Positions 66 to 5,390 of a stretch of 64,000 nt of DNA are shown here, piece by piece. A program made the translations under genes and the position numbers. Source of the stretch: Candidatus Spyradenecus sp. (GTDB lineage Bacteria > Verrucomicrobiota > Kiritimatiellia > RFP12 > DVOR01); NCBI GenBank assembly GCA_045613865.1, contig JAZLBT010000026.1:5001-69000 (forward strand), in the 5' to 3' direction. The first letter of the stretch is position 1. Each line of letters starts with the position of its first letter. Under the pieces are notes generated by a model. The model had not been told where the DNA came from. It saw only the letters and a list, made by a program, of their open reading frames with translations, and made no database searches.

Positions 66-185
66 AAAAAAAACGCCCTCGGCTTCAGGGCGAGGGCGTT
101 CTAAAAGGCAGGTGATACCACTGTTATCTCGTGGCTCTACTGACCGAGGCGTTCATGAGGTTAGTCCCCAGTAGTTACCGCCAGT
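66..185 (-). ncRNA. candidate small structured RNA 'A'
   Basis: Directly downstream of the 187-221 promoter cassette. Internal stems TGGC/GCCA and CTACTG/CAGTAG. Ends in hairpin aacgccctcg..cgagggcgtt plus T8 on the minus strand. Confidence 0.55.
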
Positions 186-186
186 A

Positions 187-221
187 AGAATACTAAATCA
201 CAAACGATGAATGTTTGTCAA
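187..221 (-). promoter_or_regulatory. repeated sigma70-like promoter cassette, copy 1 (TTGACA-N15-TGn-TTTAGT)
   Basis: 187-228 is 40/42 identical to 5318-5359; its reverse complement matches 2204-2238. Confidence 0.7.
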
Positions 222-315: not shown

Positions 316-426
316 ATGAATAATCTGACGAAACAATGTTTGCGTGATATGGCCTCGGCCCTTGCAGGAATTTTCTTTTATCGCCTCATTACTTGGTTAT
401 TGGGTGCTAACGGCATTTGGACCTAA
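316..426 (+). CDS. 36-aa hydrophobic peptide, Ldr/Fst type I toxin-like (MNNLTKQCLRDMASALAGIFFYRLITWLLGANGIWT)
   Basis: AGAGGA RBS at 301-306; one hydrophobic segment; D-x-A..LAGI..W pattern resembles Ldr; a second copy ends at 30. Confidence 0.55.
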   Translation: MNNLTKQCLRDMASALAGIFFYRLITWLLGANGIWT

Positions 427-624: not shown

Positions 625-700
625 TTGGCACACTTTTTGACCTGCCTAAATGATTTTAAAGAATTTCAGAAATAGACTACGATTGATTGAAAAAGTGAAA
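625..700 (+). repeat. degenerate partial copy of the outer end of the 39.5/41.6-kb inverted-repeat element
   Basis: ttggc..actttttgacctgcctaaa..gaaatag..tacga..gaaaaagtgaaa aligns with 5502-5570 and 41791-41858. Confidence 0.55.
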
Positions 701-894
701 CCAATAAGAAGCCCTTTACATCGAGGTGCCTTAGTTTCGTACTTTTCCAGAGGAACTTCTACCTTACAAACACAATTATTAAACCATAACAATAAAAGAA
801 ATATCGAAGAGGTGAATTGAATCATTGACATGAGATTGAAGAAGTGTTACTGTTAGAGGGAGTTTTCTCGGTGGATGTTATAGGACGTGGATTA

Positions 895-1945: not shown

Positions 1946-1980
1946 TTGACATATCATCTGATTTTGTGCTCTAATGTTCT
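1946..1980 (+). promoter_or_regulatory. promoter cassette, diverged copy (TTGACA-N15-TGc-TCTAAT)
   Basis: Same 35-nt length, same upstream tttttca, and TTGTG..TAATGTTCT end as the other copies. Confidence 0.6.
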
Positions 1981-2188
1981 TGTTTTCAAAGCGAAGGCTC
2001 CTCCAAGGAAGTAAGTTTGAGGCACTTGGAAGTAGACGGTGGCCGGAAATAACAGGTGCAGGTTCGCCTGCAAGTGCGAAAGATCCGAAAGGTGAAGCCC
2101 GGCGGTCGACATTAGTAAGTCGCGCCAATGTCATCCTCCGTTTTGTTCTCTATTTGGCCACCACGCGAACGATAGCGGGTGGCCTTTT
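1981..2188 (+). ncRNA. candidate structured RNA 'D' (paralog of F)
   Basis: 22-nt exact match aaagatccgaaaggtgaagccc (2079-2100) to the reverse complement of 4746-4767; terminator ggccacc..ggtggcc-tttt at 2156-2188. Confidence 0.65.
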
Positions 2189-2203
2189 CCAAAGCGATAA
2201 TAC

Positions 2204-2238
2204 TTGATAAACATTCATCGTTTGTGGTTTACTGTTCT
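2204..2238 (+). promoter_or_regulatory. promoter cassette copy (TTGATA-N15-TGg-TTTACT)
   Basis: 32/35 identical to the reverse complement of 5318-5352. Confidence 0.7.
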
Positions 2239-2239
2239 T

Positions 2240-2407
2240 CGCAAAACGGAGATAGAGACCATCCTCTGAGCCGTGAGTTGCCCGATGCCAGATGGTGAGG
2301 CATTTTGGTAGGCTTCTTTTGAAGCCGAGGCGCTTCCAAAAGTTTGCGGGTGAACGTGTGCGCTTTTGGATTAAACCTGGGGATGTTCACCAGCCCCGCG
2401 GTTTTTT
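2240..2407 (+). ncRNA. candidate structured RNA 'E' (paralog of G)
   Basis: AAACGGAGAT..CCGTGAGTT..TGCGGG shared with G; stems ccaaaag/cttttgg and ggcttc/gaagcc; terminator hairpin plus T6 at 2373-2407. Confidence 0.6.
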
Positions 2408-2428
2408 ACACTCGCCGGTTTTTCGTCA

Positions 2429-2457
2429 TTGACATTTTTCGCACATTGGGGTATTTT
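2429..2457 (+). promoter_or_regulatory. sigma70-like promoter of the ankyrin gene
   Basis: TTGACA-17-TATTTT, about 55 nt upstream of ATG 2511. Confidence 0.55.
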
Positions 2458-2510
2458 ATAAATATCAATTCTTTTAACCCCGTGATACGTCTCCGTGTCG
2501 AGACGTTTTT

Positions 2511-4394
2511 ATGACTCAAAAAACAATTCGTTTCGTTGGTGTCTCGCGCCTCAATCAGGCTGTTTTACCCTTTTTCTTTAACCGAGCCATTTCGCTAACG
2601 CCTTCCGTGCGTCGGCGATTGTTCAAATATGCCGATGAGGCCACAGCGGTGGTGCGCGCCTACTACCGCCGGTCTATCTTTCCGCATCACTACGGACGAG
2701 ATCCCGAGAATTGGGAGGTCTCTCCTAGTGCACTAGCGGCCTACGCCTTCTTTCTACGTGGCCTCGCGCGCGGACGCATCTTTCGTTATGGTGCCATTTT
2801 CCACTCGGTCGGTATTGCGGCAGCAAGTTTAAATCACGTTGAGATTTTACAACTCCTCATTCACGAGGGAATTCCCTTGGATTTACTCCATGAAGGGGGT
2901 GACACTGTGCTTGCCACCGCGATTCGCTACCATCACGAACCTTTGGCCCACGCCCTCATGGATGCATTCCCACGTTTTATAAGCCACAAATATGCCCCGA
3001 GTGCGATGTATGCCTGTATCTTTTCAGGCACTATTCCACTCTTTTTTGACATGGTTGAGCGCGGTTTCTCTATTACCTTTTTCATGGGTTTCAAAGATTG
3101 GATTGGCACCCCCTTGAGCGCCGCTGTGCGTCGCGGACGTCATACCATCACACGCTACCTGCTTAAACACGCCTTCACTGAGGCCAATATTCTCATGCCC
3201 AAGACCTTTGAGTATGACCCGTTGCACGCTTACTTCAAATGGACTCTCTTTAAAGAAGCCATCTGTCACCAAAACCGAGAAGTCCTTGACCATCTCAAAG
3301 CGCACGGTTGGAACCCGCCAGCAAAAATAATTGGGGCCTTCTGCAGAGAAACAGGCGTCCTCGACTCCCTTACGCGCCTCAAATTCACCGAAACCGTCTA
3401 TCCCGACTTACCCTTCCGCAAACACATCCAAGCGATGTGCATGGATGAAGATAACTGTTGGTTCATTGACGATGACATTCTGCGGTATTACAACCTTCCA
3501 CTCAATGAAGATGAGGAGGACTTAACGCGTGTAAAGGCCGAGCCACACGATTGGCGCACAGATATCCCCTCTACCATGGAGGAAATTGGGGAATGTCTTG
3601 GCGAACGCCCCGAAAACATCCTGCGCCTCATCCCACGCATTCGTGAACAACTGCGCACCTATTATCAAAAAGCAGAGTTTTCCCATCACGCAGCACGTGC
3701 CTCGGTCTATGCCCTCTGCCTCGCACAACACTCTGCCGCACCCCTCTTTACTCACGAAGAATTACAAGACGCCGTGCGTCAAAACTCGGAGTTTAAGTAC
3801 TACGCTACGTCTTATCACGAACGTATCCTCGGCGTTAAGATTTTCAAAAAAAATTATGAGCGCGTCAGAAAAATTGATCATATCGTAGCACTACAAGGGA
3901 AAGACTTGCAATCCTTTCTTGATCAAAGCGATGAAGCCCTTGAAAAATATCAGACATGTTATGGCATTCCCATCATTCGTTACATCGCAGAAAAATCCAC
4001 CGTAGAAGCCCTTGAAATGTGGATGGAACGTGGTTTCTCAATTTGCGCCTGCGAAGAAATTGAATCCTGGCATCCCACACACTATGCTAACCCAGAAATT
4101 CTTGACTACTACTTCACCCACGTCGGCATGCACTACCGCACTAGATGCAATGAATACGCAGACACCCTCGCCTTCTCCATCCGTGGCGATGACGCAAGAT
4201 GCGTCAAAATCTTTGTCAAACATGGCTACCCCCTCAATCGTCGCCTCTGCGATCACGACTACCCGCTCGCCTATGCCTTCTATGAAGGCGCCGAAAAAAT
4301 GACGCATGCCCTCTACGATGTTGGCGCCAAAATGTTGGACCGAAAAGGTCGAAAAATGAACCTACCCCCATGGTTTAAACCGCTTCGCGGTTGA
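2511..4394 (+). CDS. ankyrin-repeat protein
   Basis: GDTVLATAIRYHHEPL, GTPLSAAVRRGR, DYPLAYAFYEGA-type ankyrin motifs. Confidence 0.75.
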   Translation: MTQKTIRFVGVSRLNQAVLPFFFNRAISLTPSVRRRLFKYADEATAVVRAYYRRSIFPHHYGRDPENWEVSPSALAAYAFFLRGLARGRIFRYGAIFHSVGIAAASLNHVEILQLLIHEGIPLDLLHEGGDTVLATAIRYHHEPLAHALMDAFPRFISHKYAPSAMYACIFSGTIPLFFDMVERGFSITFFMGFKDWIGTPLSAAVRRGRHTITRYLLKHAFTEANILMPKTFEYDPLHAYFKWTLFKEAICHQNREVLDHLKAHGWNPPAKIIGAFCRETGVLDSLTRLKFTETVYPDLPFRKHIQAMCMDEDNCWFIDDDILRYYNLPLNEDEEDLTRVKAEPHDWRTDIPSTMEEIGECLGERPENILRLIPRIREQLRTYYQKAEFSHHAARASVYALCLAQHSAAPLFTHEELQDAVRQNSEFKYYATSYHERILGVKIFKKNYERVRKIDHIVALQGKDLQSFLDQSDEALEKYQTCYGIPIIRYIAEKSTVEALEMWMERGFSICACEEIESWHPTHYANPEILDYYFTHVGMHYRTRCNEYADTLAFSIRGDDARCVKIFVKHGYPLNRRLCDHDYPLAYAFYEGAEKMTHALYDVGAKMLDRKGRKMNLPPWFKPLRG

Positions 4395-4731
4395 TAACTC
4401 GCTCGGCCCCATCGATATTGTTTGGGGTATTCCAGGAGACGCCAAGAATGATTACGCAGGCGGTTACGGCATTTCTCATACACTGGCTAAGCACGGAAAG
4501 GAAGCATTAGAACAAGCTCCTCTTCTTCTAGCTTATGGAAAATATTATAAGGATGTTTGGAGAAAAAACGGCTGGCTGGTTATCAAAGGTCACTGGGTCG
4601 CCGCACTTAACGAAGATAAAAACAGTAATATTTATCTTTCTACGATTTACAAATCAATAGAAAAGGCGGCTCGCTACTCGCGAAGCCGCCAAATCGAAAA
4701 CAAAGTAGGAGATGATGGCGCGACTCTCTAG
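4390..4731 (+). pseudogene. start-less PBECR (Barnase/EndoU/ColicinE5-D/RelE-like) nuclease fragment
   Basis: Frame open 4360-4731 with no ATG; reads LGPIDIVWG..GGYGISHTLAKH..IYLSTIYK, matching my recollection of the PBECR3 DIDLVWG..GYGLxHIxxKH motif; absent from the ORF track. Confidence 0.6.
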
Positions 4732-4734
4732 TGG

Positions 4735-4866
4735 ACGACTTTCCAGGGCTTCACCTTTCGGATCTTTTGTACCCACGCCGTAGCTAATGGTATACTACTT
4801 CCTGGCACCGCTACGCATTATAGCCCTCACAGCTGTAGTCTATAATGGGAGCTCCTCTTTGAACAT
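4735..4866 (-). ncRNA. candidate structured RNA 'F', convergent with the nuclease fragment (paralog of D)
   Basis: TTGACT at 4894-4899 on minus. Shares TTCAAAG, GCTCC, GTAG(A)CGGTG, GGAARTA and the 22-nt block with D. Confidence 0.65.
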
Positions 4867-5008
4867 TTATAGTGTTCCAAATCTTAAACCAAAAGTCAAG
4901 CATTTTTATCGTTTTGGAAAGAGCCATTTAAAGGCAATGTAAAGCAAGCCAACAATATTGATTGTGGTTGTGCTAAGGAGTGTAATTTGCACAGGTTCTA
5001 CTAAATGA

Positions 5009-5317: not shown

Positions 5318-5352
5318 AGAATATTAAACCACAAACGATGAATGTTTGTCAA
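5318..5352 (-). promoter_or_regulatory. promoter cassette copy (TTGACA-N15-TGg-TTTAAT)
   Basis: Near-identical to 187-221 and 2204-2238. Confidence 0.7.
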
Positions 5353-5390
5353 TGAAAAAAGGTAAAAAATAGAAGGGGAAAACCGAATGA

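What the first reader, a model, noticed from the sequence alone, without database searches (positions are those of the whole stretch)
1981..4866. RNA family D/F: conserved junction motifs with fully replaced stems
Seen: both read TTCAAAG..GCTCC-[stem]-GTAG(A)CGGTG..GGAARTA..GTRCRAAAGATCCGAAAGGTGAAGCCC. The first stem is tccaag/cttgga in D and cattatag/ctataatg in F. The closing stem is gccgg/ccggc in D and ccagg/cctgg in F. Preserved pairing despite changed sequence indicates selection on RNA structure. F abuts the stop of the PBECR fragment on the opposite strand; D is an orphan copy.
Basis: seen in the sequence. Interest (0 to 1): 0.8.

Follow-up and report, generated by a model that had tools for sequence, protein, structure and literature searches.

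The report
Structured small RNA beside phage RNase
The two look-alike stretches are genes for a previously uncatalogued folded small RNA that, in related bacteria, always sits tail-to-tail with a phage gene ending in an RNA-cutting (PBECR1) domain, so it may be an RNA that keeps that enzyme in check.

Summary
Confirmed. D (window 1982-2188, +) and F (4661-4866, -) are two diverged copies (76% column identity) of one small-RNA gene: a 165-171-nt core, then an intrinsic terminator. D has a near-consensus promoter; F's is off-consensus.

Eleven members were found (nine of 33 genomes of the family, plus one metagenome contig). They support six helices: 88% of cells paired against 73% in shuffles, and 23 of 36 pairs changed on both sides. 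A GNRA loop is present in 11 of 11. No frame is conserved. Rfam 15 has no match.

The family is one branch of a wider set of junction RNAs. These lie antisense between a portal-PBECR1 fusion gene and the next head gene of Mu-like prophages. The RNA's terminator is encoded inside the last 7-35 codons of the PBECR1 domain.

In this genome only relics remain. F overlaps, rather than abuts, a start-less PBECR1 fragment. D keeps 25 terminal codons. A third, different RNA with a 118-codon remnant lies just upstream of the window.

RNAs without the RNase gene are common; the reverse is rare. My best reading (0.4) is an RNA antitoxin or immunity factor for the PBECR1 RNase. No expression or binding data exist.

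The parts
1946..1975 (+). Promoter of copy D: TTGACA (1946-1951), 18-nt spacer ending TTTGTGC, then TCTAAT (1970-1975).
   Evidence: Read by eye. The same layout (TTGnCn, about 13 nt, TTGTGG, A/T-rich hexamer) appears upstream of all 20 related RNAs listed. The consensus scan did not call it, because that scan requires A at position 2 of the second hexamer.
1982..2150 (+). Copy D, structured core. P1 is the closing helix. P2 is a hairpin with loop GAAGUAAGUUUGAGGCA. P3 is GGUGG/GCGCC. P4 is CCGG/CCGG. P5 is GCAGG-UUCG-CCUGC. P6 is CC-GAAA-GG.
   Evidence: Covariance model R1 scores it 145.7 bits, E 3e-39.
2156..2188 (+). Copy D intrinsic terminator: a 10-bp hairpin followed by UUUU.
   Evidence: -20.9 kcal/mol, z -3.35, 0 of 200 shuffles fold as well. 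Its stem differs from F's by compensatory changes.
2112..2189 (-). Relic of a PBECR1 gene 3' end, antisense to D's terminator and 3' core. It is 25 codons plus a stop (EKATRYRSRGGQIENKTEDDIGATY*).
   Evidence: It matches 24 of 25 residues of the C-terminus of the 301-aa PBECR1 protein of G115.
4696..4866 (-). Copy F, structured core. Same helices as D. P2 is CAUUAUAG/CUAUAAUG and P4 is CAGG/CCUG.
   Evidence: R1 scores it 184.2 bits, E 5e-50. F's single-sequence minimum-energy fold recovers P1 and P2.
4661..4690 (-). Copy F intrinsic terminator: a 10-bp hairpin followed by UUUU.
   Evidence: -21.2 kcal/mol, z -4.17, 0 of 200 shuffles fold as well.
4866..4899 (-). Promoter-like region of F: TTGACT (4899-4894) and TATAAA (4871-4866), separated by an off-consensus 22-nt spacer.
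   Evidence: Read by eye. Compared with the 93%-identical copy in G100, F carries a 6-7-nt insertion here. The scan did not call it. It is possibly a weakened promoter.
4360..4731 (+). PBECR1 fragment, 123 codons from stop to stop with no ATG, GTG or TTG start. Homology begins at 4396 (NSLGPIDIVWG). The conserved KH and S/T-x-Y motifs are kept. Its last 23 codons are antisense to F.
   Evidence: Pfam PF18809 E 1.3e-4, 22.9 bits, which is below the cut-off of 27.6. It is 42% identical to the PBECR1 end of the portal fusion of G088. The AlphaFold model has pLDDT 87.7, and its best PDB matches are RelE/HigB/CDI RNase toxins, all weak (best E 6.6e-3). A contig of DNA run X4 diverges from the window after 4408.

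Best explanation
D and F are genes for a folded small RNA of about 205-215 nt. The layout is own promoter, 165-171-nt multi-helix core, then terminator. The family belongs to Mu-like prophages of Kiritimatiellia-type bacteria.

In intact relatives the gene lies antisense in the gap between the portal-PBECR1 fusion gene and the next head gene. The folded core fills the intergenic space. Only the terminator hairpin, and in some members the 3' edge of the core, is encoded inside the last codons of the PBECR1 RNase domain.

I propose that the RNA neutralises that RNase, acting as an RNA antitoxin or immunity factor. Two routes are possible. It could pair with the 3' end of the portal-PBECR1 message. 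More probably, the conserved junction and loop nucleotides bind the RNase domain as an inhibitor or decoy.

Relic copies such as D and F persist after the prophage has decayed. This could be because losing the RNA while an RNase gene remains is harmful, or because the RNA protects against the virion-delivered RNase of related phages.

Shown: the RNA structure, the strand, the gene arrangement, and the co-occurrence with its asymmetry. Inferred: expression, any effect on the RNase, and the mode of action.
For: 1. Structure. Six helices covary (figures in the observation check). In an alignment not fitted to any model, hairpin P2 pairs in 96.7% of cells against 59.9% in shuffles across 10 wider relatives.

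2. Strand. A GNRA tetraloop caps P6 in 11 of 11 members (GAAA, GCGA or GCAA). There are 33 G-U cells against 14 A-C cells. A terminator with a U-tract follows on this strand only.

3. Linkage to PBECR1, starting from the RNA. Of 11 D/F-type RNAs, 5 converge on an ORF with a full PBECR1 domain (G088, G011, G115, G031, L025). One converges on a start-less domain fragment (F). Three keep only terminal codons (D, G019, G060). Two have nothing (G100, G097).

4. Linkage, starting from the protein. Of 15 genomes with a PF18809 match among 201 searched in the order, 11 clearly and 2 probably (G037, G047, by eye) carry a convergent junction RNA. One has only an antisense promoter (G096). One contig ends too soon to tell (G182).

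5. The proteins are Portal_Mu plus C-terminal PBECR1. The next gene is the Mu gpI protease in G154, G167 and viral contig L069.

6. The pairing follows the RNase domain rather than the portal type. A viral contig with the other portal family (PF04860) fused to PBECR1 also has a small convergent junction RNA, and its terminator covers the last 7 codons.

7. Asymmetry typical of antitoxin or immunity genes. RNAs without the RNase are frequent. By model R2 (a covariance model of the P2 hairpin module), 5 of 14 hits also lack an intact partner. A C-terminal PBECR1 without the RNA is rare.

8. Relic RNAs keep their helices as well as linked ones do. The relics of G060 and G097 differ from each other by compensatory changes in P1 and P2.

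9. In G011 the pair sits alone between acpP/fabG and a Glu/Gln-tRNA synthetase gene, with no phage genes. Within about 5.5 kb, G000 holds three separate relics that each keep the RNA.

10. His and Thr/Ser columns are conserved in the linked PBECR1 domains: H invariant in 14 of 14, the T/S-x-Y/F motif present in all. By my reading they correspond to the catalytic residues named by Iyer et al. 2017 (PMC5512222, passages read). In MuF toxins, 89.4% of 191 toxin genes are followed by a small putative immunity ORF at this same position (PMC5576092, passages read).
Against: No expression evidence exists. The one RNA run that shares words with the region has no contig over D or F.

Single-sequence folding is no more stable than shuffles: z +0.49 for F and -0.11 for D.

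The alignment used for covariation was fitted to the model. The 11 sequences come from one genus and include near-identical pairs (G088/G011, F/G100).

The antisense overlap with the coding region is short, about 20-105 nt. It could be simple genome compaction rather than a functional feature.

Some loci have a small ORF just beyond the RNA that could be a protein immunity factor instead: 92 aa in G154, 64 aa in L025, 44-47-aa membrane peptides in G115 and G031, and 207 aa in L069. None matched a family.

F's promoter is off-consensus. In intact phages the supposed toxin is part of an essential virion protein, so the logic of an addiction module does not transfer simply. Polyvalent proteins with an internal PBECR1 domain were not examined for such an RNA.
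Confidence: 0.4

Rival explanations
1. It is a purely cis-acting antisense regulator of the phage late (head) operon. Pairing with the read-through portal-to-gpI transcript would trigger cleavage or decay. That would silence leaky late expression in lysogens or set the portal-to-protease ratio, with no specific relation to RNase activity.
For: The RNA is fully complementary to the intergenic part of an operon transcript. Its promoter abuts the start codon of the next gene in G154, G167, G163, G093, G037, G115 and G031. G096 has only an antisense promoter at this place. Lambda OOP RNA against cII is a precedent (recalled, not from a call).
Against: A cis-antisense RNA needs no conserved junction nucleotides, no GNRA loop and no covarying multi-helix fold. 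Relic copies with no sense gene left keep their structure, their terminator and (except F) a consensus-like promoter. The association holds across two unrelated portal families and different downstream genes, while PBECR1 stays constant.
Confidence: 0.2
2. It is a trans-acting phage 'moron' small RNA that regulates host or competing-phage messages. Its position next to PBECR1 would be historical only.
For: It has its own promoter and terminator (in most copies strong or extended -10-like) and is about 200 nt long. It persists as single genes in chromosomal contexts. There is a conserved 18-22-nt unpaired segment between P4 and P3 (GUCGUCCACUAGnnAGUC) that could serve as a seed.
Against: No target was sought or found. 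The position relative to PBECR1 is kept over three or more RNA subtypes whose sequences are otherwise barely alignable. Hitch-hiking does not predict that.
Confidence: 0.15
3. It is a type I antitoxin for the small hydrophobic peptide encoded just beyond its promoter on the other strand.
For: In G115 and G031 the next ORF is a 44-47-aa single-helix membrane peptide. In G088 a 31-aa hydrophobic peptide follows, and a copy of that peptide lies at window 316-426.
Against: The neighbour varies. It is a soluble 64-92-aa ORF in L025 and G154, gpI directly in G167, and nothing in G011. The RNA does not overlap the peptide's start region.
Confidence: 0.07
4. It is a virion or packaging RNA bound by the portal's C-terminal RNA-binding domain, analogous to phi29 pRNA.
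For: It has a junction architecture and adjoins the portal gene. Iyer et al. predict RNA binding for inactive PBECR domains (PMC5512222, passage read).
Against: There is no Rfam pRNA match. These phages have terminase-type packaging genes. The catalytic residues are conserved. Relics survive without any portal.
Confidence: 0.05
5. It is not an RNA at all, but a coding or DNA-level element such as a phage site or a transposon end.
For: The 3' 30-100 nt do double as coding sequence for the PBECR1 C-terminus.
Against: No frame is open in all 11 members on either strand, and indels of 1-2 nt are common. The covariation includes a G-U bias and strand-specific GNRA loops.
Confidence: 0.02

Closest known systems
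Type I toxin-antitoxin pairs with convergent, 3'-overlapping antisense RNA (B. subtilis txpA/RatA, bsrG/SR4; E. faecalis par RNA I/II). Recalled, not from a call.
   Same: An RNA of about 200 nt is transcribed tail-to-tail with a harmful gene. It shares the terminator region with that gene, sits on prophage-derived DNA, and has its own constitutive-type promoter.
   Different: The partner here is an RNase domain of about 100 aa, usually fused to a 600-750-aa portal, not a small membrane peptide. The overlap is limited to the terminator region. The RNA has a conserved multi-helix core lying outside the overlap.
Type III toxin-antitoxin systems (ToxIN, CptIN, TenpIN). Recalled, not from a call.
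   Same: The idea of a folded RNA that directly neutralises an endoribonuclease.
   Different: There is no tandem repeat array. The RNA is downstream and convergent, not upstream in the same operon. The RNase has a BECR/RelE-like fold by Pfam and by weak fold matches, not the ToxN/AbiQ fold.
MuF and portal polymorphic toxins or polyvalent-protein effectors with downstream immunity ORFs (Jamet 2017, PMC5576092; Iyer 2017, PMC5512222).
   Same: A portal or MuF head protein carries a C-terminal PBECR RNase. The partner gene sits immediately after the toxin domain.
   Different: The slot is filled by an antisense RNA gene, and no immunity protein family is conserved there. A word search of each paper (PBECR/portal/immunity in one; immunity/downstream/RNA in the other) showed no RNA partner in the passages displayed. 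Their supplements were not seen.
Lambda OOP RNA and other phage cis-antisense RNAs. Recalled, not from a call.
   Same: A phage-borne RNA convergent with, and overlapping, the 3' end of a phage gene.
   Different: OOP is 77 nt and is essentially a terminator hairpin. This RNA has six covarying helices and conserved junctions.
phi29 prohead RNA (pRNA)
   Same: A junction RNA of similar size, functionally tied to a portal.
   Different: No sequence or structure match in Rfam. The phage type and genome position differ. There is no evidence of virion association.

Membership tests
Any Rfam 15 family | Covariance-model match at the family's gathering score | tested here: not met
   A gathering-score scan of the whole window found only 4 tRNAs. 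Permissive scans (E up to 5 and up to 1) of 14 loci holding D, F and relatives of several subtypes gave only chance microRNA or snoRNA-type rows, far below their cut-offs.
Type I toxin-antitoxin (3'-overlap class) | Antisense RNA complementary to the toxin message | tested here: met
   The RNA's terminator and 3' edge are encoded inside the last 7-35 codons of the PBECR1 ORF in all 5 intact D/F-type pairs and in F, and in most of the wider relatives examined (G154, G167, L096). This is sequence-level only; transcripts were not observed.
Type I toxin-antitoxin (3'-overlap class) | Toxin is a small (under about 60 aa) hydrophobic peptide | tested here: not met
   The partner is a PBECR1 RNase domain, mostly at the end of portal fusions of 340-753 aa.
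Type I toxin-antitoxin (3'-overlap class) | The RNA lowers toxin translation or message stability | not testable with these tools
   Needs expression experiments.
Type III toxin-antitoxin | Antitoxin is a tandem array of short repeats upstream of the toxin gene | tested here: not met
   Tandem Repeats Finder finds no array at D or F. The gene is single-copy and convergent.
Type III toxin-antitoxin | Toxin of ToxN/AbiQ-type fold that processes and binds its RNA | tested here: not met
   Pfam assigns PBECR1. The model's best PDB matches are RelE, HigB and CDI toxins, all weak. Processing and binding are not testable here.
Portal/MuF polymorphic toxin with immunity gene | Head-protein N-terminus with a C-terminal toxin domain | tested here: met
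   Portal_Mu plus PBECR1 occurs in G088, G154, G172, G167, G093, G047 and L069. Phage_portal plus PBECR1 occurs in L096. In the window itself only fragments remain.
Portal/MuF polymorphic toxin with immunity gene | Small immunity protein ORF directly downstream of the toxin domain | tested here: inconclusive
   The first feature downstream is the RNA gene, which has no conserved ORF. Beyond it, some loci have small unrelated ORFs with no family match and others have none.
PBECR1 (PF18809), for the ORF beside F | Pfam score above the gathering cut-off; conserved His and Thr/Ser | tested here: inconclusive
   The score of 22.9 bits is below the cut-off of 27.6. However, the ORF aligns at 40-48% identity with five ORF ends beside D/F-type RNAs, four of which score above the cut-off, and it keeps KH and S-T-x-Y. 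It has no start codon, so it is a fragment.

The most novel reading that the evidence does not exclude
The folded core binds and blocks the BECR-fold RNase domain directly. That would make it the first RNA immunity factor for a virion-delivered, polymorphic-toxin-like effector. Relic copies such as D and F would then act as 'orphan immunity RNAs' that protect the cell against the injected RNase of related superinfecting phages.
Probability: 0.25. Interest if true: 0.85.

Novelty: new variant of a known kind. Interest (0 to 1): 0.62.

Why it matters
PBECR RNase domains on portal and MuF proteins are predicted to be injected weapons, but how phages and lysogens stay safe from them is not known. 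A conserved, structured RNA sitting exactly where protein immunity genes sit in MuF toxins gives a concrete, testable candidate. If it holds, RNA antitoxins extend to the BECR/RelE-like RNase fold and to virion effectors.

Independently of function, this is an uncatalogued bacterial and phage RNA family with strong covariation. It has at least three subtypes sharing one junction plan. It is also useful as a marker of Mu-like prophage relics in gut Kiritimatiellia-type genomes.

Tried and rejected
- **Rfam.** Three scans found no family.
- **Expression.** One run search and one laying gave only assembled contigs. The single RNA run has no contig over D or F, so nothing can be said about expression.
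- **Promoter/terminator scan.** It called neither the promoters nor the terminators of D and F, because of its strict hexamer rule and the bulged stems. Those features rest on my reading, on folding and on conservation across relatives.
- **Single-sequence folding.** No excess stability. Support for the structure comes from covariation only.
- **Genome-collection pattern scan.** Of 10 stretches, 3 were real members by R1 (L013, L016, L022). Their scores equal those of three G-handle loci, so they were counted once. The other 7 were chance matches in GC-rich genomes.
- **Viral pattern scan.** Of 2 stretches, 1 was real (L067) and 1 was chance (L068).
- **P7.** The hairpin ACU/AGU proposed by RNAalifold (a consensus-fold program) was dropped because it is broken in G060, G097 and G115.
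- **P1 in the G167-type RNAs.** No convincing closing helix was found by eye.
- **PDB sequence search with the PBECR1 profile.** Nothing relevant.
- **Cultured phages.** Only Helicobacter polyvalent proteins at 29-33% identity, so there is no cultured model phage.
- **Literature.** No paper was found that describes such an RNA. Searches: 'PBECR'; 'Mu-like' + 'antisense RNA' + 'portal'; a five-term antisense/portal/small RNA/prophage/toxin-antitoxin search; 'RNA antitoxin' + 'BECR'. Supplements were not available.
- **Earlier notes of this scan.** Nothing on this element.
- **Ideas considered and dropped.** Hammerhead, k-turn, sarcin-ricin or tRNA mimicry in the P2 loop were considered by eye. 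No consistent match was found and none is claimed.
- **Prophage attachment-site gene.** Rejected. The RNA lies inside the head operon, is patchy (9 of 33 genomes) and has no conserved host flank.
Full report
**Observation**

The longest shared block, a 22-mer, occurs exactly twice in the 64-kb window, once on each strand, and no shuffle produced a match. The genome (G000; 1.9 Mb, 34 contigs) holds only these two copies.

**Anatomy**

The element is larger than described. RNAalifold on four sequences and then a covariance model (R1) define the following parts:
- P1 is a closing helix of up to 11 bp, joining CAAAGnnnnGG to CCnnnnCUUUG about 150 nt downstream.
- A short joiner follows (GCUCC or GCACC).
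It carries a 15-19-nt loop ending in UGAGG.
- Next comes a (C/A)GUAG joiner.
- P3 is GGUGC/GCGCC. It encloses P4, P5 and P6.
- P5 is a variable hairpin.
- P6 is CC-GNRA-GG.
- A conserved 18-22-nt unpaired segment ends in UAGnnAGUC.
- A joiner (AUCAU or UCAC) leads back to P1.

A 10-bp hairpin plus UUUU follows in both copies, at about -21 kcal/mol. No shuffle of 200 folds as well.

D has a near-consensus promoter: TTGACA, 18 nt, TCTAAT. F's has a 22-nt spacer. The simple scan did not call any of these sites. Single-sequence folding energies are not better than shuffles.

**Homologs and covariation**

R1 finds full-length members in 9 of 33 genomes of the family. That is 8 of the other 27 genomes of the same genus and 0 of 5 genomes of other genera. 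Each has one copy, except G000 with two. One metagenome contig, L025, adds another.

On the 11-sequence model alignment with my six helices (36 pairs), 88.1% of cells pair. Column shuffles give 72.9% (0 of 500 reach the observed value), and sliding partners by 1-3 columns gives 38-45%. Twenty-three pairs change on both sides, and every helix has at least two such pairs.

Three caveats apply. The alignment is fitted to R1, although the P1 extension and P5 were not in the model. All sequences come from one genus. Some are near-identical pairs.

**Strand and coding**

P6 is capped by GNRA in 11 of 11 members. G-U cells outnumber A-C cells 33 to 14. The terminator U-tract and the promoter are on the same strand. 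No frame is open in all members on either strand, and 1-2-nt indels are common. Only the 3' 30-100 nt double as coding sequence on the other strand.

**Context**

The ORF that F overlaps (4360-4731) is a PBECR1 fragment. Its Pfam score is below the cut-off, but it is 40-48% identical to five ORF ends beside D/F-type RNAs, four of which score above the cut-off. It models confidently (pLDDT 87.7), with weak RelE, HigB and CDI-toxin fold matches. It has no start codon.

In G088 the same RNA converges on a 703-aa Portal_Mu plus PBECR1 fusion that follows a large terminase gene.

Of the 11 RNAs:
- 5 face a full PBECR1 domain;
- F faces a fragment;
- D, G019 and G060 keep only terminal codons;
- G100 and G097 keep nothing.

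In G011 the truncated PBECR1 ORF and the RNA sit alone between fatty-acid synthesis genes and a Glu/Gln-tRNA synthetase gene.

**A wider family**

PF18809 matches 15 of 201 genomes searched in the order. Reading the DNA beyond each C-terminal PBECR1 shows, in most, a convergent gene with the same promoter type and the same plan. That plan is P1, GCAAC or GCUCC, P2 with loop GGAAGUA...CUGAGGCA, GUAG, P3, UAGCAAAG, and P1 again.

P2 pairs in 96.7% of cells in a plain MAFFT alignment of 10 such RNAs. A 48-nt model of this module (R2) hits 14 places in 12 of 151 genomes. Nine of the 14 face a PBECR1-like ORF and five do not.

The proteins are Portal_Mu-PBECR1 fusions, and the next gene is the Mu gpI protease in G154, G167 and viral contig L069. 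Among 29 PBECR1 loci from viral contigs, 4 have the domain at the C-terminus. Three of those have a convergent RNA, including one with the other portal family. The 25 internal or unresolved ones were not examined.

One such pair lies just upstream of this window: a 118-codon PBECR1 remnant with a different-subtype RNA, at L011:1328-1480.

**Variation among strains**

A DNA contig of run X4 joins window 1952 to 2221 with 10 other letters in between, so it lacks the D module. The same run diverges after 4408, 14 nt past the ankyrin gene's stop. Run X1 has a diverged D allele. The modules are therefore accessory.

**Mechanism**

The constant partner is the RNase domain, not the portal type or the downstream gene. 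The RNA survives the loss of the RNase far more often than the reverse. Relics keep their fold, and G000 has three relics that each retain the RNA.

This is the pattern of an antitoxin or immunity gene, and the gene occupies the slot where MuF toxins carry immunity ORFs (PMC5576092, passages read). The conserved unpaired nucleotides argue for recognition of the folded RNA rather than mere antisense pairing. The short overlap could still contribute.

Nothing here shows expression, binding or toxicity. Small unrelated ORFs beyond the RNA in some loci remain alternative immunity candidates.

**Known systems**

The arrangement resembles 3'-overlapping type I pairs, and the idea resembles type III pairs. 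Defining features of both fail: there is no small peptide toxin and no repeat array. Rfam has no match. In the Iyer 2017 passages shown by a word search, portal/MuF-PBECR fusions are described and no RNA partner appears. My literature searches found none either.

Noticed in passing
L011:1328-1480 (+) and L011:1441-1797 (-), which is G000 contig C26 about 4527-4996, just upstream of the window start: A third relic. It is a 118-codon PBECR1 remnant (PF18809, 37.5 bits), with an internal conserved Met as its only start. It is convergent with a different-subtype junction RNA (GCGAG/CUCGC closing helix, P2 loop GAAGUACAAAACUGAGGCA) and a strong terminator over its last codons.
   Followed up: yes
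window 66-186 (-), with its promoter at about 192-221: Another small-RNA-like gene with the same promoter cassette, the motifs ACUGGCGGUAAC...GGACUA...CAGUAG...CACC and a strong terminator (GCCCUCGCCCUGAAGCCGAGGGC plus U8). A close relative follows the D/F-type RNA in G019. It has no Rfam match and is possibly a further subtype of the same superfamily.
   Followed up: partly
window 696-771 (-): A decayed copy of the P2 module (GGAAAAGUACGAAACUAAGGCAC). It is a weak R1 hit (E 0.063).
   Followed up: partly
window 192-221 (-), 2212-2241 (+), 5325-5354 (-): A repeated promoter cassette of about 30 nt (TTGAyAAACATTCATCGTTTGTGrTTTAnT). The same cassette drives the junction RNA in G109, and a diverged form of the cassette is D's own promoter. 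Here one copy precedes the ankyrin gene, with a 270-nt leader. Recombination between cassettes may explain the D-less strain variant.
   Followed up: partly
window 1952-2221 and 4408: Strain polymorphism. A contig of DNA run X4 lacks 1953-2220 (the whole D module), with 10 other letters in its place, and diverges from the window after 4408. Run X1 carries a diverged D allele (195 nt replaced by 199 nt).
   Followed up: partly
window 316-426 (+); partial copy at L011:1768-1830 (+): A 36-codon hydrophobic peptide gene (MNNLTKQCLRDMASALAGIFFYRLITW...). A 31-aa homolog lies next to the RNA promoter in G088, followed there by a lipoprotein-like ORF with a coiled coil. This may be a lysis or type I toxin-like peptide of the same prophage lineage.
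   Followed up: no
window 2511-4394 (+) and 4360-4731 (+): The 627-aa ankyrin-repeat gene ends 35 nt inside the open frame of the PBECR1 fragment, which is in the +1 frame. The strain comparison puts the homology break at 4408. This looks like a junction between unrelated DNA rather than a frameshifted fusion.
   Followed up: partly
L016 (genome contigs): A contig whose record title names a Firmicutes gut species carries a full-length member (143.9 bits, GC 0.58). Its score is identical to that of a locus in a genome of the window's own genus, so it is probably a mis-binned contig.
   Followed up: no
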